DNA of 45,469 nucleotides from a virus (lineage: Duplodnaviria; Caudoviricetes): positions 1-45,469 of the IMG/VR virus record IMGVR_UViG_3300037424_000357. One strand, 5' to 3'. Shown piece after piece: positions 6,344 through 12,625 of the stretch. The notes under the pieces were generated by a model. It had not been told where the DNA came from. It was given only the letters and a program-made list of their open reading frames with translations, and searched no databases. Numbering within the stretch: the stretch's first letter is position 1; every line of letters begins with the position of its first letter. The translations under genes and the position numbers were made by a program.

Positions 6344-7354
6344 TTACACCTTGGCTGATTTGTTAACCGTGGGTTGAGCCCTTGCCCGGTCCATAAACAA
6401 AGATTCACCTCTGAAATACGGTATCCCATCCTGAACCGTGACAAGCTCAGGGGGCAGCAACCGGCCAGCCTTGAAGGTCAGCGAACCAAAGCCGGAACCC
6501 CAGTTCATCGGGTTGTCCTCGCCGTAGTCAAACTTGTCGGTTTCCGGCCCGAAGTCAGATAGCGTTCCAGTGTCCACGCCCCAGCGCCTGCCTCGGTAGT
6601 CAGTGATTGGAGTAACGCATGAGCGGTGCAGGTGATTTGTGACAATGGTTTTTCCGCCGTGTAGCGTGTTGTTCCATGCGGCGTGCAACCCATTCCGGAA
6701 CCGGTGCTTCACCACAACATCATCATTGATATGGGTGGACCAAGCGAAATTCCATGCCGGGAAGTGGTCTTGAAGGTCCATTCCCTCAACCCGCACATAT
6801 TCCGGCGCAACCGATGCCAGGCGGGCAGAGAACCGGGCGTCGTGGTTGCCCATGTTCCAGCACAGCTTGGCCTTGGGCGGGGCTGCCGCGGCAATCTCGC
6901 CCATCATTTCCTTGCAGAAGGCGAGCTCGTCGGCAACGTCAGGCAGCTTGGACCAGCCCTTGGGGGGGTGCCTGGAGATAGTCGGGCCGTCAAGCGCGTC
7001 CCCATTGAAAATGAGATATTGCGGCTGATACACATTAATAAAGCATATGAGGGCTTTATGCGCTACCGGCGCTTCACCCGGCCAATAGTGGCTATCTCCC
7101 CAAACTACGGCAATACCGTCTTTGATTGCCAGTTCTATACGCTGGCCAATCCGGTCAACATATTCTTTCGGTCTGCCCGTGGTTGAATTGGGGCCGGATG
7201 GGAGCAATACGCCAAGCCTGCCTTCAATGGCCTTCCGTCTATGGAATGTATTGCTTACCGTGAGGTCCAGGGCCTTGGCTATTTGCGTTGTTTGGCCATT
7301 GAATTTAAGCCATGTTTCAATGAAAATTTTGTCGGGCACCGGGGCCTTGGTCAT
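6344..7354 (-). CDS. calcineurin-like metallophosphoesterase with N-terminal HTH-like region
   Basis: GDSH, GDALD, GNHD, KH and NHLHR motifs. Confidence 0.88.
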   Translation of the reverse strand: MTKAPVPDKIFIETWLKFNGQTTQIAKALDLTVSNTFHRRKAIEGRLGVLLPSGPNSTTGRPKEYVDRIGQRIELAIKDGIAVVWGDSHYWPGEAPVAHKALICFINVYQPQYLIFNGDALDGPTISRHPPKGWSKLPDVADELAFCKEMMGEIAAAAPPKAKLCWNMGNHDARFSARLASVAPEYVRVEGMDLQDHFPAWNFAWSTHINDDVVVKHRFRNGLHAAWNNTLHGGKTIVTNHLHRSCVTPITDYRGRRWGVDTGTLSDFGPETDKFDYGEDNPMNWGSGFGSLTFKAGRLLPPELVTVQDGIPYFRGESLFMDRARAQPTVNKSAKV

Positions 7355-7629: not shown

Positions 7630-7860
7630 TCAATGTTCGTCTCGCTTGGGGCGCTTTCGCCAATTGTCCCAGTCCATCGCTTGACGAAAAGCCTGGTGCA
7701 TCTTCTCCTCTATTTCAGGGGAGTTCCGCTTCATGATGATCGGGATTGCCTGCTTGATCATCCAAACAGCAAGCCGGGGCAAGTAGTCCGTTCGGGTTAC
7801 GGAATACCAAATGCCCCCGGCAGCTACGGCAAAGAGGACTAAACCTCCAAGCCAGATCAT
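7630..7860 (-). CDS. small membrane-anchored protein
   Basis: N-terminal TM; coupled to the upstream gene. Confidence 0.6.
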   Translation of the reverse strand: MIWLGGLVLFAVAAGGIWYSVTRTDYLPRLAVWMIKQAIPIIMKRNSPEIEEKMHQAFRQAMDWDNWRKRPKRDEH

Positions 7861-8054
7861 TAGTAAAGTGTCTTGGCTGTGAAGAAGGTGCGGAATACAA
7901 TCGTAATGAGCGACTGGATTGCAGTAATGCCAGCAAGAATCTGGACCTGCATTTCAGAAGAAATGTCCATTCCAAATACTGCGGCCACCATAGCCGCAAA
8001 GCTGATTGCCTGAGTCCAGTTGATCTTTGAGAGTAGTCCAGGGTTGATAGTCAT
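7860..8054 (-). CDS. putative holin (2 TM)
   Basis: SKINWTQAISFAAMVAAVFG...; 64 aa; lies in the lysis region. Confidence 0.65.
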   Translation of the reverse strand: MTINPGLLSKINWTQAISFAAMVAAVFGMDISSEMQVQILAGITAIQSLITIVFRTFFTAKTLY

Positions 8055-8438: not shown

Positions 8439-8608
8439 TCGATTTTGACGCCGTTTTTGTCGTATTGGTAGATTATCGGGTTGATGATGTAGCCCATCGC
8501 TTCTTTTGCAAGCGCCAAGGATTCATAGCTGCCCATTGGGGCCCCGTTTTTTTCAAGGTTCCACTTTTTATCTAGGCGCTGTTGAATTTTGAAAACTGCG
8601 GTCATCAG
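8435..8608 (-). CDS. hypothetical protein
   Basis: ORF 8435..8626, likely start MTAVF. Confidence 0.55.
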   Translation of the reverse strand: MMTAVFKIQQRLDKKWNLEKNGAPMGSYESLALAKEAMGYIINPIIYQYDKNGVKIE

Positions 8609-9123
8609 TTCACCTGTGTAAGGCAATGGGTTACTTCGGAAGCGCGGCGGAAGCGCAGGCCCTTCAAGACCTTTCCGCTTGTGTTCGTGGTGAGGTCAAG
8701 CATCAGGTCAAACGCATCAATGTAGTTTTCGGCGTTGAGCAGCGGAAAAAGATTGGTCTTGTCGAGACGGCCCAACCCGTATTGGAAGCAGAGCGATGAA
8801 AGACCCTCAAACTGATACGTTGTCAGCGGTGCCTTAACCCGAACGTCAATGTAATGGGCTTGGCGATTTATGTCCCTGATGAGGATTAGCGTTCCTTCTT
8901 CTTCCGTGAATTCCATGTCCTCGGTTATCTTGAACGGCGGATTGTCGCCGTCCTCTTTGTGGCCATAGCAAATGCTGTAAACGAGTGAGCCATCACCGCG
9001 CATTCCGTCCGGGTAGCGCTTGGCCCGCCATGCTTCGGAGCGCTTCAGGTGCGGATAAAACGAGGGCCTTATAATTCTCTCGAAAGAGTGTTTTGAGCCA
9101 AAGACGTCTTCACGGAAGGCCAT
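8605..9123 (-). CDS. GH24 phage lysozyme (endolysin)
   Basis: SE...YPD...SICYGH, QFEGLSSLCFQYG and GLRFRRASE. Confidence 0.82.
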   Translation of the reverse strand: MAFREDVFGSKHSFERIIRPSFYPHLKRSEAWRAKRYPDGMRGDGSLVYSICYGHKEDGDNPPFKITEDMEFTEEEGTLILIRDINRQAHYIDVRVKAPLTTYQFEGLSSLCFQYGLGRLDKTNLFPLLNAENYIDAFDLMLDLTTNTSGKVLKGLRFRRASEVTHCLTQVN

Positions 9124-9126
9124 GGC

Positions 9127-9585
9127 CTAGCCCTCGAACGGCTTACTTTTTTTCGCCCACACGCGCCACGGGTGAAGCTCCACATGCGGCAGATCAATGA
9201 ACGATTCATTGTAGGCGTTGCCGTCCCCGTTCCAGTCGCAGCCAAGCCGGATTGGAACATGCAGCTTTTGGGCAAGTGGCCGGATGATGTTCATCTGCAT
9301 GTGCCGGAAGATTGCATGACCATCCCGGCCATCGTCTTTTGCGTCATCCCAGTCTATCGGGAGTGGCGCAATATCCAATGCAACGGCGGGTGCCCAGTTG
9401 TGGGCGGAATTGCCGAAGTGAACTTTTGTGTGGCCCTTCCTGAATGCGGCCTCCTGATCGGCCCGCCCACGCTGGCTTTGCAGGATGGTGAAGTCGAATT
9501 CAAGAATAGCCGCGTTCATCAGCTTTTGAAGAAGCGGATGGGCGCGGGACAGGCGTTCGGCGGCGGCTTCGCTGAATTTAGGCAT
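9127..9585 (-). CDS. M15-family peptidoglycan peptidase (L-Ala-D-Glu type endolysin)
   Basis: R...Q, SAHN...ALD and DLPHVEL zinc motifs. Confidence 0.88.
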   Translation of the reverse strand: MPKFSEAAAERLSRAHPLLQKLMNAAILEFDFTILQSQRGRADQEAAFRKGHTKVHFGNSAHNWAPAVALDIAPLPIDWDDAKDDGRDGHAIFRHMQMNIIRPLAQKLHVPIRLGCDWNGDGNAYNESFIDLPHVELHPWRVWAKKSKPFEG

Positions 9586-9899
9586 CAGATACCCATCGTG
9601 GAGCCGCCGGGGGCTTCGCGGGCCGAGACAATCATGCCCTTGGCTTCTTCCATCAGCGCGAATTCGCCTGCGGCAACGGCTTCAAGTTCGGTAATTCGGC
9701 TCGCTTGCGCGGTGTTGGCGTCCGTGAGATTGGCGATTACGGCCTTTGCGTCGTTGAAATCCATGATAAGGTCTTTGATGAATGGCAAGAGTTCGTTCAT
9801 TTTAAGTGCCATAGTTGTGTTCTCCTTCATAAGAGATTGAATTGTTGGGGTTGGGGTTGGGGGAACGGGGGTTTTGAAAAAGGAAAATATGTTCTTCAT
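9585..9899 (-). CDS. coiled-coil hypothetical protein
   Basis: Coupled on both sides; heptad-like C-terminal half. Confidence 0.6.
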   Translation of the reverse strand: MKNIFSFFKTPVPPTPTPTIQSLMKENTTMALKMNELLPFIKDLIMDFNDAKAVIANLTDANTAQASRITELEAVAAGEFALMEEAKGMIVSAREAPGGSTMGI

Positions 9900-10327
9900 G
9901 GTTCAAACTCCTTGGGGGCCTGTGGCGGCGGGCGGCGCACTTCGGCTATCTCGGAAGGGTCATCGACAAGGTAGAATTCATCGCCTGACTGCTCACGCGC
10001 CCGCCAGGCGTCCTGCATTGATTCAACCCCTTCGGACCATGGGTAGGCATAGCTCACCGGAACACCGTCACGCATGACCCAGAGATAGACCAGGCGCTTT
10101 TCCTGATTGGGAACGAAGCCTATAATGGGCAGGCTGGCCATCTGCCGCCATTCGATTTCCAATGGCTTGGGCTGGCCCGCCGTCTCGAATGAAAGCGCAA
10201 ACGCCCCGCCCGCAAGCATGACGAATACAGCTGTTGCAATGCCCTTGTGCCAGCTTTTAGGGACACACAGATAGGTGAAGGCCCCTAGCACGGCAACGAA
10301 TGCGGCGACATAGGCGATGAATGTCAT
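9896..10327 (-). CDS. 2-TM membrane protein with soluble C-terminal domain
   Basis: MTFIAYVAAF...GQPKP...LVYLWV...PVSYAYPWS; start corrected to the ATGA overlap at 10327. Confidence 0.75.
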   Translation of the reverse strand: MTFIAYVAAFVAVLGAFTYLCVPKSWHKGIATAVFVMLAGGAFALSFETAGQPKPLEIEWRQMASLPIIGFVPNQEKRLVYLWVMRDGVPVSYAYPWSEGVESMQDAWRAREQSGDEFYLVDDPSEIAEVRRPPPQAPKEFEP

Positions 10328-10437
10328 ATCAATCCGTTCTGCCAAAGGGCCGTATAGAAGCCCAGTGCCGTGCCGATCCCAGATGAAATAGCAACACCGA
10401 TAAGTTCGGCGATTGCCCACTTGATTTCTGTGGTCAT
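10324..10437 (-). CDS. 37-aa TM peptide (not in ORF track)
   Basis: MTTEIKWAIAELIGVAISSGIGTALGFYTALWQNGLI; ATGA overlaps at both ends. Confidence 0.65.
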   Translation of the reverse strand: MTTEIKWAIAELIGVAISSGIGTALGFYTALWQNGLI

Positions 10438-11042
10438 TCCGGCCTCACAAGCGATTTGAATATGTGGTTGACCGAGCCGGGAACAACATTGCCCTGCCCG
10501 TCTATTGTAAAGCGTACCAGCGTGGTTTCTTCGCCCGTGCGGTATAGCGTGACAGTTTGCTTGACTATCTTCTGGCTGCCCTTCCCTGCGCTTGGATTGG
10601 CTGTGATGACGACTTCGCCCTCAACATTGACGGGGTAGAATTGAGGCCCGCCGCGATAGGCATGAATGTTAACTACGTAGTCGCCTGCTGGCAGGCCTCG
10701 TGCATAAGCGTTTTCGAAGTTTCTTTGCGCCGTATCTCCAGCCATTCCGAGATCATCGCGCAAGAGGTTCCAAATCTTACCGGAGAGTTTTCCGAAAAAT
10801 ACATGATCACCGCTGGGCGAAGAGAGGTGTGTGTCAATGTCAAGGTCAATGCCGTCCGGCCAGTAGACGTAAACGGAAATGTTTCCTGCGGTAACATCGT
10901 CATTGGTTTTCTCCGTTGCCTTGGTGTTCTTGATTTGAGTTACGAGAAGTGCAGTCAGCACCATGAAGCAGGCAAGCAAGGCCCACAAAAGGTCATTGAA
11001 AGTAAAAAGTGTGGCGACTAGGCCGTTATTCCTCCTGCTCAT
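10434..11042 (-). CDS. MotB/ExbD-like single-TM protein with YfaP/DUF2135-like beta domain
   Basis: FNDLLWALLACF TM with a membrane Asp; then W...DIDTHL..PSG...RDD...ENA...GDYVVNIHAY. Confidence 0.7.
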   Translation of the reverse strand: MSRRNNGLVATLFTFNDLLWALLACFMVLTALLVTQIKNTKATEKTNDDVTAGNISVYVYWPDGIDLDIDTHLSSPSGDHVFFGKLSGKIWNLLRDDLGMAGDTAQRNFENAYARGLPAGDYVVNIHAYRGGPQFYPVNVEGEVVITANPSAGKGSQKIVKQTVTLYRTGEETTLVRFTIDGQGNVVPGSVNHIFKSLVRPE

Positions 11043-11451
11043 CGTACCAGCCAAGCAGCCTAAGGGACAATTCCAGCCAAAGATTGCAAGACAGCGCAAT
11101 CAATGAAACGTAAAAAGCTATGCCGATTGAGCCGAGAAACAGCGCCGCGACTTGCGTGACATCGCCGCCAGACAGAATGCTTTTCGAGACTGAGGCCAGC
11201 GCCGCGAGAATGCCGACTTGCATTCCTATGACGGCTATTCGCACCATCTTGTCAGCGAGCCATGCCGCGTGAGCAAATTGCCTCATCCCGACTAGGATAA
11301 TCCCCACACCGCCAAGGGCCGCGACAACCGCCGAGAACCAGCGCGAGTCACCCTCGAATGGCTTGATTAAGTAGCCCGACAGCCATAGCGCCACGAGGCC
11401 AGCGGCTAGGACGCATTGAATGACGACGAAACGGAGATAGAAAACCTTCAA
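11026..11451 (-). CDS. MotA/TolQ/ExbB-like membrane protein
   Basis: Four hydrophobic segments; IAVIGMQVGI and GIAFYVSLIAL resemble the two channel helices; directly upstream of the Asp-TM partner. Confidence 0.65.
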   Translation of the reverse strand: MKVFYLRFVVIQCVLAAGLVALWLSGYLIKPFEGDSRWFSAVVAALGGVGIILVGMRQFAHAAWLADKMVRIAVIGMQVGILAALASVSKSILSGGDVTQVAALFLGSIGIAFYVSLIALSCNLWLELSLRLLGWYDEQEE

Positions 11452-11756
11452 GAATTTTTCCCTTCAATCTCAATTGGCAAATCTTCCCAAGCCTCTCCGG
11501 ATGCAACAATGCAAGTCACGCCCTGCGGCGATGAAGATAGAACAGTCCATGTTCCGGATTTCGCGGCAAAGATTTCAACAAAGTTGTTGTTTGAGACAGC
11601 TATCACGCGCCGCGTTTCGCTGAACTTGTCGCCAAGGGCCTTGACCATCTTGGCATGATCGCCACAGGCGGCCTGCGCGTGGGCCAGTTTCGGGACAACG
11701 AACATCAGGCCAAGAGCAAGCAAAAGACCTGCGATAATCGTGATTGCATATTTCAT
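11448..11756 (-). CDS. secreted/periplasmic Cys-pair protein
   Basis: Signal peptide ending AHA; C...L...FSE...GTWT...C pattern. Confidence 0.75.
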   Translation of the reverse strand: MKYAITIIAGLLLALGLMFVVPKLAHAQAACGDHAKMVKALGDKFSETRRVIAVSNNNFVEIFAAKSGTWTVLSSSPQGVTCIVASGEAWEDLPIEIEGKNS

Positions 11757-11811
11757 GGGCGGCCTCGCTTCCTGTGGCTCCAGGGGTTGAACTTGCTCCT
11801 ATGAACGTGTA

Positions 11812-11840
11812 TATATATTTCACGGTCATATGCCTGTCAA
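11812..11840 (-). promoter_or_regulatory. sigma70-type promoter for the membrane operon
   Basis: Minus strand TTGACA-N17-TATATA. Confidence 0.6.
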
Positions 11841-11856
11841 TACAAATGTTGGAGTA

Positions 11857-12018
11857 GTGGTGAATAAGGATGTAGTTATCCAAATCAGAGCCGACGAAGA
11901 GTTCTGGCGGCTTGTTGACGATTGGCGGCGGGTTCAGCCCGATCTGCCAACCAGATCAGAAGCCGTGCGCCGAATGGTTCGCTTGGCGGCGGAATCACTT
12001 GCCCCGAAACAAACGTGA
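11857..12018 (+). CDS. ribbon-helix-helix (CopG/Arc-like) regulator
   Basis: VIQIRADEEF..LVDDWRR.QPDLPTRSEAVRRMV; ggag RBS before GTG. Confidence 0.8.
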   Translation: MVNKDVVIQIRADEEFWRLVDDWRRVQPDLPTRSEAVRRMVRLAAESLAPKQT

Positions 12019-12159
12019 CCAGACCTGAATGCAAAGCCAGATCAAGCCCGCGATGGGCAGCAAAAGCGCCGCTATGGTTGAAACGTCTTGAAGCCATGGT
12101 AGCCACCATGGGCTTACTACAGCGAGCCCCGCCGCTGTGTTGGTGATGTAGTCGTTCAT
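11995..12159 (-). CDS. small membrane protein, holin-like
   Basis: MNDYITNTAAGLAVVSPWWLPWL...LIWLCIQVWSRLFRGK with a basic C-terminus. Confidence 0.6.
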   Translation of the reverse strand: MNDYITNTAAGLAVVSPWWLPWLQDVSTIAALLLPIAGLIWLCIQVWSRLFRGK

Positions 12160-12395
12160 CAAGCCACCCCGTAAATCAGGCTTGCCAGAAGCCACCAGAT
12201 CGTGAAGCGGCAACACTTGCTCCACCATTCCCCATCATCACGAAAAGCTTGAGACCAGAATCCCTTGGCCTTATGATACCAGGAGCCGTTGCTGATCTGG
12301 CTCAAGTCCGGCCTATGGGGGAGCCGTTCGCCGCCAATCAGCATCAGCGGGAAATCAATCGGGCTTGTGAAGATGAGAACGAACAGGGCTCGCAT
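12159..12395 (-). CDS. hypothetical membrane protein
   Basis: Coupled ORF with hydrophobic ends. Confidence 0.5.
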   Translation of the reverse strand: MRALFVLIFTSPIDFPLMLIGGERLPHRPDLSQISNGSWYHKAKGFWSQAFRDDGEWWSKCCRFTIWWLLASLIYGVA

Positions 12396-12625
12396 CAGAG
12401 CGCCTTTGAAACCAAAAGAACCGTGAGACATGCCGCTATGGGTGCCAATAGCCCCTTCCAGTCAAAGACGCCGCTTTCTTCCCATTGGGTCAATTCACGC
12501 CCGGTATAAACCGAGGCCCCAGCCACAAGGCCCATATCGAGGCCAAGGAACGGCCAAAGCACGACTGCAATTAATAGCGCAATGGCTATGTGGCACATCC
12601 AGTAATGGGGAAGCGGGCAGGTCAT
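12395..12625 (-). CDS. hypothetical 3-TM membrane protein
   Basis: Coupled to the tail fibre stop. Confidence 0.6.
   Translation of the reverse strand: MTCPLPHYWMCHIAIALLIAVVLWPFLGLDMGLVAGASVYTGRELTQWEESGVFDWKGLLAPIAACLTVLLVSKAL

What the first reader, a model, noticed from the sequence alone, without database searches (positions are those of the whole stretch)
9585..12018. Phage-encoded MotA/ExbB + MotB/ExbD-like membrane operon with its own promoter, coupled to the endolysins
Seen: a minus-strand chain of overlapping ORFs, namely a secreted Cys-pair protein (11448-11756), a 4-TM protein (11026-11451), a single-TM protein with FNDLL plus a beta domain (10434-11042), a 37-aa TM peptide, a 2-TM protein and a coiled-coil protein, running straight into the M15 peptidase. 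A TTGACA-N17-TATATA promoter and a divergent RHH gene lie upstream. Established: MotAB, ExbBD, TolQR and ZorAB are 5:2 ion-driven motors whose B subunit has an essential TM Asp. Inference: this is a minimal phage-borne ion motor or channel. It could act in lysogen defence or exclusion, membrane depolarisation, or envelope remodelling at lysis. The B subunit lacks the OmpA-like peptidoglycan-binding domain, and no ZorC/D/E, TonB or TolA is present, so it is not a canonical system.
Basis: partly seen in the sequence, partly recalled or inferred. Interest (0 to 1): 0.85.

Follow-up and report, generated by a model that had tools for sequence, protein, structure and literature searches.

The report
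Phage mini ion-motor with rewritten pore
This phage carries three conserved membrane genes, also found in many alphaproteobacteria and other phages, that likely build an undescribed relative of the ion-driven flagellar-stator/Ton/Tol motors; its lineage has replaced a pore residue those motors keep, and the position beside the lysis enzymes is local rather than general.

Summary
The ORFs, overlaps and promoter motif are as described. The conserved unit is three genes. A (11026-11451) links through homologs to MotA/TolQ/ExbB. B (10434-11042) has a membrane Asp and a predicted TerD-like beta-sandwich with near-invariant acidic residues. C (9896-10327) is a 2-TM protein of no known family. A accompanies B in 161 of 163 loci with room and C in 152 of 166 (some loci are duplicates); B occurs in 53 of 401 alphaproteobacterial genomes and in temperate and T4-like rhizobial phages. 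Specific to this clade: A has Met-Gln and Val-Ser where relatives have Thr/Asn and mostly Thr-Thr (42 of 43 rows), under purifying selection. The secreted Cys-pair gene is a frequent passenger; the 37-aa ORF fills a variable slot. Endolysin adjacency holds in 4 of 6 clade loci but 0 of 46 other phage loci. The 5:2 complex could not be modelled. The scan has noted this trio before on other DNA (9 notes); my paper searches found no description.

The parts
11026..11451 (-). Subunit A: 141-aa 4-TM MotA/TolQ/ExbB-like protein without a cytoplasmic domain; pore motifs read IGMQVG (M77-Q78) and FYVSL (V115-S116) instead of GTV and TT
10434..11042 (-). Subunit B: 202 aa, one TM helix with Asp17, short linker, predicted TerD-like/DUF2135-like beta-sandwich with near-invariant D68, D70, D96, D97, N108, E110
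9896..10327 (-). Subunit C: 143 aa, two TM helices plus small beta/alpha domain and Pro-rich tail; no family; conserved third gene
11448..11756 (-). S: 102-aa likely secreted Cys-pair protein (phrog_25396); frequent but optional neighbour of the cassette, also common alone
10324..10437 (-). 37-aa ORF filling a variable slot between B and C; no homolog found; other loci have unrelated ORFs or nothing there
11812..11840 (-). TTGACA-N17-TATATA sigma-70-type promoter-like site facing the cassette
   Evidence: similar site in L042
11830..12018 (+). Divergent small RHH-like regulator gene (name recalled from motif); homolog in the same arrangement in L042
9585..9899 (-). 104-aa soluble ORF, likely coiled coil; not part of the conserved core
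9127..9585 (-). Endolysin (PHROG 465), peptidase-type by recalled motif; neighbour, not core
8605..9123 (-). Phage lysozyme (PF00959); neighbour, not core
11995..12159 (-). 54-aa holin-like membrane ORF upstream; its homologs run straight into S in L037 and L039
   Evidence: holin label is inference

Best explanation
Genes A, B and C likely form a small ion-driven inner-membrane motor of the 5:2 (MotAB/ExbBD/TolQR/ZorAB) kind, shared between alphaproteobacteria and their phages, that this phage likely expresses from its own promoter to alter the envelope of the infected or lysogenic cell rather than to lyse it. Steps: (1) shown: A-B-C travel together, A is homologous to MotA/ExbB through close relatives, B keeps a membrane Asp, and all three are under purifying selection. 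(2) Inferred from the family: five A ring two B helices; ions cross via B Asp17 and A Ser116, with Gln78 probably standing in for the lost Thr; loss of two of the three polar filter residues common in the chromosomal members points to protons rather than sodium. (3) Predicted: the periplasmic head of B is a TerD-like sandwich whose invariant acidic cluster binds a divalent metal such as Ca2+, so it would sense or grip the envelope and gate the pore in place of a plug or OmpA domain. (4) Inferred: since A has no cytoplasmic torque domain, output must be periplasmic, and C would be the side-bound arm, in the role TonB/TolA play, acting on the wall or a wall enzyme. (5) Least certain: the benefit to the phage is most likely hindering entry of competing phages.
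For: Synteny A 161 of 163, C 152 of 166 loci with room (first count 86 of 89 and 89 of 93). 16 of 18 A homologs hit PF01618, 11 above the gathering score; a profile made only from this clade hits those homologs at E 1e-27 (L047, L051); the family profile hits ZorA, MotA, TolQ, ExbB, PomA chains in the PDB (E 4e-6 to 0.1). B Asp in 317 of 359 rows, 51 D + 4 E of 56 in this clade; D68/D70/D96/D97/E110 in 349-353 of 359. B model pLDDT 88; best fold matches TerD 2qz7 Z 9.8 (rmsd 3.6, 132 aligned) and 2kxt Z 9.0, next 5.8. dN 0.12-0.28 against dS of 1.4 or more for the closer pairs. ZorA works with Ser at the second site and single T147A keeps partial activity (PMC11946911, passages). Promoter plus divergent regulator also in L042. 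In cultured phages the trio lies among replication/early-type genes, away from endolysins.
Against: The window's A and its 26-member clade alignment have no PF01618 hit of their own. The Thr called essential in ExbB/TolQ (Thr148/Thr145; PMC12905483 figure legends) is Met here. A profile of the B membrane segment found no ExbD/TolR/MotB chain (36 positions, low power). C's membrane helices show no conserved Ser/His of the TonB SHLS type. In L037 and L039 there is no room for a promoter, so the cassette would be read with the late genes. In this clade 4 of 6 loci lead into a lysozyme-like gene. No expression or phenotype data.
Confidence: 0.45

Rival explanations
1. A wall-breaching or lysis-timing accessory: the A-B motor reads the membrane potential and C steers or restrains a muramidase, so the location between holin-like gene and endolysins is functional.
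For: In this clade the cassette sits between a holin-like gene and lysozyme-like genes (window, L042 by Pfam; L039, L040 by eye and by a profile seeded with them). The Atlas structure search aligns C residues 25-143 (TM 0.60) to a 297-aa protein of an 86-member viral cluster that is 100% PF00959. L037/L039 lack the internal promoter.
Against: 0 of 40 IMG/VR loci and 0 of 6 cultured-phage loci have a lysozyme-profile hit within 2 kb downstream of B (profile is narrow); among 148 neighbours from 41 loci only L042 had an endolysin domain; L043 and L045 of this clade show none; chromosomal copies have unrelated neighbours. No C-lysozyme fusion in 193 loci.
Confidence: 0.2
2. A gated leak channel: envelope stress or loss of metal from B's head opens the pore and depolarises the cell (abortive or exclusion response), with no mechanical output.
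For: No plug-length linker (residues 45-49), no cytoplasmic domain on A, altered filter residues, own promoter.
Against: Housekeeping-like single-copy presence in 53 of 401 genomes with varied metabolic neighbours; an obligatory third membrane protein is more like a force transducer; carried by T4-like phages for which suicide gives no gain.
Confidence: 0.15
3. A non-conducting or dominant-negative copy: the Met/Gln pore no longer passes ions, and the phage subunits poison or redirect the host's own A-B-C motor or serve as a scaffold.
For: T148-equivalent lost in 42 of 43 clade rows; long branch to the clade on the B tree (0.76); hosts of this class often carry the trio.
Against: Asp17 (or Glu) and Ser116 are kept throughout the clade; all three genes are kept together under purifying selection; other phage branches keep Thr or Asn.
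Confidence: 0.12
4. Neutral cargo or chance ORFs with no function in the phage.
For: Insertion-prone slots between the genes.
Against: dN far below dS; 516 clusters at 50% identity with E <= 1e-30 for B; retained in several unrelated phage groups.
Confidence: 0.02

Closest known systems
ExbB-ExbD-TonB and TolQ-TolR-TolA (Ton and Tol-Pal motors)
   Same: A-type channel subunit, single-TM partner with Asp (often Phe nine residues later, 216 of 359 rows), third membrane gene in the operon, small cytoplasmic part
   Different: B head is a predicted all-beta TerD-like sandwich; C has two TM helices, no SHLS motif and no long periplasm-spanning linker; Thr148 equivalent is Met in this clade
ZorA-ZorB (Zorya)
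   Same: Best PDB profile hits for A (8vvn E 4e-6, 8qyy E 8e-5); Ser at the second filter position; phage-related context; a metal site is predicted (though on B in the periplasm, not on A)
   Different: No ZorA tail, no OmpA-like domain on B, no ZorC/D/E-type neighbour seen; carried by phages themselves
MotAB / PomAB flagellar stators
   Same: Four hydrophobic segments in A; GxxGT and TTxxG motifs in the chromosomal members; Asp-bearing B helix
   Different: No torque-generating cytoplasmic domain, no plug+linker, no OmpA-like domain, no flagellar context
TolQ-like + TPH-vWA motors predicted in PMC12204202
   Same: A 5:2-type motor whose B subunit carries a non-canonical periplasmic head
   Different: Head is TerD-like, not vWA; single B gene; fixed 2-TM third gene; passages read mention no phage carriage or this family
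TerD domain (2qz7, 2kxt) and DUF2135/YfaP
   Same: Fold of B residues 53-200 (Z 9.8, 9.0); weak DUF2135 hits in homologs (E 3e-4); acidic motif
   Different: 11-13% identity; membrane-anchored and periplasmic; no Pfam TerD hit; metal binding untested

Membership tests
MotA/TolQ/ExbB channel (PF01618) | Profile match of the window's own protein | tested here: not met
   No hit for A or for 26 clade members
MotA/TolQ/ExbB channel (PF01618) | Homology through close relatives in the same gene position | tested here: met
   Clade profile hits L047/L051 at E 1e-27; these score 31 and 30 bits against cut-off 22.9; 16 of 18 homologs hit; PDB hits
5:2 ion motors | First pore Thr (ExbB T148, TolQ T145, ZorA T147) | tested here: not met
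   Met77 followed by Gln78 in 42 of 43 clade rows; T 67, N 15, C 1 of 88 other rows, 5 gaps
5:2 ion motors | Second pore hydroxyl (ExbB T181, ZorA S184) | tested here: met
   Ser116 in 42 of 43 clade rows, Thr in 86 of 88 others; Ser in ZorA
5:2 ion motors | B subunit with conserved membrane Asp encoded next to A | tested here: met
   Asp 317 of 359 rows; adjacency 161 of 163
5:2 ion motors | Sequence homology of the B helix to ExbD/TolR/MotB | tested here: inconclusive
   36-position profile found no such chain at E <= 10; low power
5:2 ion motors | A5B2 assembly and ion-driven rotation | not testable with these tools
Flagellar stator (MotAB/PomAB) | Torque-generating cytoplasmic domain in A; plug+linker and OmpA-like domain in B (PMC12505986 passages) | tested here: not met
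   About 10 residues between TM2 and TM3 of A; B linker 45-51 then all-beta domain in a pLDDT-88 model
Ton / Tol-Pal | TonB/TolA-type transducer with one TM helix bearing SHLS | tested here: not met
   C has two helices; conserved columns are P90, P96, W97, K139, none in the membrane
Zorya | Long ZorA tail and ZorC/D/E effectors | tested here: not met
   A is 141 aa and ends 17 residues after the last helix; no nuclease/helicase effector in the window cassette; neighbours vary; PADLOC not scanned
TPH-vWA motors (PMC12204202) | vWA (Rossmann-type) head on the B subunit | tested here: not met
   Model head has ten strands and no helix of 4 or more residues; best match TerD
TerD domain | Beta-sandwich fold | tested here: met
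   VIA Z 9.8 and 9.0 over 132-133 residues, rmsd 3.5-3.6; only modestly above the 7-8 typical of chance best hits
TerD domain | Ca2+ binding | not testable with these tools
   Only the invariant acidic cluster is shown; its correspondence to TerD ligands was not mapped

The most novel reading that the evidence does not exclude
An undescribed three-subunit class of 5:2 motor that phages trade with alphaproteobacteria and have re-tuned: this lineage conducts with a Met/Gln/Ser filter unlike any characterised motor, is gated by a periplasmic Ca2+-binding head, and uses C to aim ion-gradient energy at a peptidoglycan hydrolase, making it a phage-encoded envelope machine for exclusion or controlled wall opening.
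Probability: 0.2. Interest if true: 0.9.

Novelty: new variant of a known kind. Interest (0 to 1): 0.66.

Why it matters
Known 5:2 motors are bacterial machines, one of which (Zorya) fights phages; here unrelated temperate and T4-like phages carry one of their own, with a new B head and a fixed third subunit, and about one in eight sampled alphaproteobacterial genomes has the same trio with no function assigned. At 141 residues with no cytoplasmic domain, A is close to a minimal motor ring, and this clade is a natural, selected substitution at a pore Thr regarded as essential, so it tests what the ion filter really needs. The classic phage 16-3 (p038, p040, p042) and Azospirillum brasilense carry the trio, so the question is testable in laboratory strains now.

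Tried and rejected
No direct Pfam, PHROG (beyond phrog_25396 for S and a weak phrog_1735 for B) or NCBIfam family for A, B, C. Six-gene operon as the unit: rejected, 37-aa and 104-aa ORFs had no tblastn hit in the loci held; L039 has an 86-aa ORF with a similar start by eye only. S as a core subunit: rejected; within 2.5 kb of B in 7 of 49 IMG/VR, 17 of 87 genome/metagenome, 0 of 6 cultured and 0 of 50 short-flank genome loci, and present in 88 of 401 genomes mostly alone. C-lysozyme fusion: seen only as an Atlas structure lead; the search for longer forms covered 316-2000 aa and so missed the 297-aa size and found nothing; none in 193 loci. C fold: the wide PDB search was filled by TM-hairpin matches and did not test the soluble domain; BFVD gave Rhizobium phage C orthologs (E 3e-4) and only weak OB/SH3-type rows; the beta-beta-beta-alpha-beta-beta order suggests an OB fold but this is unconfirmed; Foldseek on the PDB never ran. 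PDB sequence searches with B, C and S profiles gave nothing significant. This clade was not found in IMG/VR or cultured phages. Trypsin-like protease as a partner: adjacent in the 16-3 group and four other loci only. Sequencing runs: no RNA holder listed. Complex prediction: not available, no result. The tree is the quick IQ-TREE result, not the finished search. Paper searches (listings only) showed no description of the trio; PMC12204202 (outline, passages), PMC12505986, PMC12905483 and PMC11946911 (passages) were read in part, their supplements not, and these could list members.
Full report
Observation. The window is one complete 45,469-base contig with portal, major head, scaffold, terminase, ejection-protein and integrase genes: a temperate tailed phage. 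Hydropathy gives four segments in A, one in B, two in C. The TTGACA-N17-TATATA site is unique in the window and absent from 100 shuffles. None of A, B, C hits Pfam or NCBIfam directly.

The conserved unit is A-B-C. B found 55 relatives among 213 candidates and A 36 among 911. Locus scans with a B alignment gave 28 viral, 7 genome and 80 metagenome loci, a second B sub-type 21 more viral loci, and genome searches 50 loci. Where there was room, A was present in 48 of 49 viral, 6 of 6 cultured-phage, 59 of 60 genome/metagenome and 48 of 48 genome loci; C in 40 of 47, 5 of 6, 65 of 65 and 42 of 48. Several loci are near-duplicates, so these are not independent counts, and some C misses are divergent 2-TM ORFs of the right size. 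The B profile matches 516 clusters at 50% identity with E <= 1e-30 and 53 of 401 sampled genomes of the class of an Aestuariivirga genome. Among cultured phages 21 records match, all Rhizobium/Sinorhizobium phages: 16-3 p038/p040/p042 are A/B/C with unrelated small genes between them, and the T4-like RHph_I1_9 carries gp146-148 between gyrase and the late sigma factor; C's model finds the RHph_Y68 ortholog by structure. Such insertions, including homing endonucleases, and unrelated ORFs in the B-C gap of L037 and L039 explain the 37-aa ORF as a variable slot. S is an optional passenger.

What A is. The window's clade has drifted off PF01618, but a profile of the clade alone hits the A genes of L047 and L051 at E about 1e-27, and those exceed the Pfam cut-off; 16 of 18 A homologs tested hit PF01618, the two misses being clade members. 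The family profile hits ZorA, MotA, TolQ, ExbB and PomA chains over the two pore helices. A has only about ten residues between helices 2 and 3, so it lacks the torque-generating domain that defines flagellar stators (PMC12505986, passages).

What is special here. At the position of ExbB Thr148 the clade has Met followed by Gln, and at Thr180-Thr181 it has Val-Ser, in 42 of 43 rows (one fragment unaligned); the 88 other rows have Thr 67, Asn 15, Cys 1 (5 gaps) at the first site, never Met-Gln, and Thr in 86 at the last. I chose the clade rows by identity; on the quick B tree the 20 clade rows included form one branch with 100% SH-aLRT. Pairwise dN is 0.12-0.28 for closer pairs of A, B and C (up to 0.59 for the distant L042) while dS is 1.4 or more or saturated, so the rewritten pore is maintained by selection. 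Thr148 and Thr181 are called essential in ExbB (PMC12905483 figure legend), but ZorA has Ser at the second site, a single T147A keeps partial activity, and lack of extra polar residues was taken to mean proton coupling (PMC11946911 passages). A working proton pore with Ser116 and perhaps Gln78 is therefore possible; whether Gln78 faces the pore is not shown, as I had no model of A.

What B and C are. B keeps Asp17 (317 of 359 rows; 51 Asp and 4 Glu of 56 in the clade), but its homology to ExbD/MotB rests on position, the Asp and spacing, not on a profile hit. Its model (pLDDT 88) is a long helix, a short linker and a ten-strand domain whose best matches are two TerD structures (Z 9.8 and 9.0; next 5.8), a margin that is suggestive rather than conclusive. 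D68, D70, D96, D97, N108 and E110 are more conserved than the membrane Asp (349-353 of 359), as expected of a metal site; one TerD entry is titled as calcium-binding. C (pLDDT 88) is a helical hairpin plus a small beta/alpha domain; its soluble fold was not resolved and it lacks the SHLS motif of TonB/TolA.

Link to lysis. In this clade the cassette lies downstream of a holin-like gene and, in 4 of 6 loci with downstream DNA (window, L039, L040, L042; not L043, L045), upstream of lysozyme-like genes (L039 and L040 lacked a Pfam hit and seeded my profile). Outside it, 0 of 40 IMG/VR and 0 of 6 cultured-phage loci had a lysozyme-profile hit within 2 kb downstream, and neighbours range from portal/scaffold to replication and metabolic genes. 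The promoter and divergent regulator recur in L042, whereas L037 and L039 have the holin-like gene 12-20 bases before S. So the cassette can be expressed on its own in some members and with late genes in others. One lead keeps a wall connection open: the Atlas aligns C to part of a 297-aa protein in a viral cluster that is all phage lysozyme (TM 0.60); I could not confirm the fusion by sequence.

Mechanism and verdict. Most likely an A5B2 ion motor with a metal-binding periplasmic head and C as output arm, used by the phage to change the envelope of the cell it occupies, most plausibly against competing phages (0.45). Rivals: lysis or wall-opening accessory (0.2), gated leak (0.15), non-conducting decoy of the host's trio (0.12). 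Assembly, ion flux, metal binding, expression and benefit are all inferred. It works like a 5:2 motor but fails the membership tests for stator, Ton/Tol, Zorya and TPH-vWA systems. Six paper searches showed no description; the library lacks most subscription papers and I did not read supplements.

Noticed in passing
window 11787-11819 (+): A TTGAAC-N17-TATATA site on the plus strand shares the TATATATA palindrome with the cassette promoter and faces the divergent regulator; overlapping divergent promoters would allow one regulator to control both (read output).
   Followed up: no
L116 4244-5143; L117, L120, L121, L034, L193 upstream; L055, L119, L188 downstream: A trypsin-like periplasmic protease gene lies near the trio in the 16-3 group and a few other loci; S41 and S49 proteases near L107 and L055.
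   Followed up: partly
L117 3270-4028, L120 3249-3986, L121 4535-5077: Homing/HNH endonuclease-type or similar-sized genes inserted between A and B or B and C in rhizobial phages.
   Followed up: no
L003, L013, L015, L019-L021, L025-L028: In one phage group the trio sits between portal-region genes and the scaffold/capsid genes.
   Followed up: no
P0020, P0023 (B) with P0088-P0090 (A): A sub-branch of the clade has Glu instead of Asp17, and related A proteins read GMQLC with Cys substitutions; pairing on the same contig is suggested only by matching contig length for P0023/P0089.
   Followed up: no
L005, L007, L010-L012, L014, L016, L017, L022, L034, L094, L117, L121: Several phage branches have Asn at the Thr148-equivalent position, a second departure from the canonical filter.
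   Followed up: partly
L191 4074-4523; L193 3748-4584: Genes just downstream of C look by eye like an RlpA-type and a transglycosylase-type wall enzyme; not scanned.
   Followed up: no
L160-L164: A chromosomal subgroup has A and B but no C detected by my profile; a different or more divergent third gene is possible.
   Followed up: no
window 7860-8054, 7630-7860, 12395-12622 (-): Further small hydrophobic ORFs around the endolysins with no family; candidate holin or spanin-type parts.
   Followed up: no
window 6344-7354 (-): Metallo-phosphoesterase (PHROG 221) after the lysis genes; similar genes follow the cassette by eye in L043, L045, L119 and L179.
   Followed up: no
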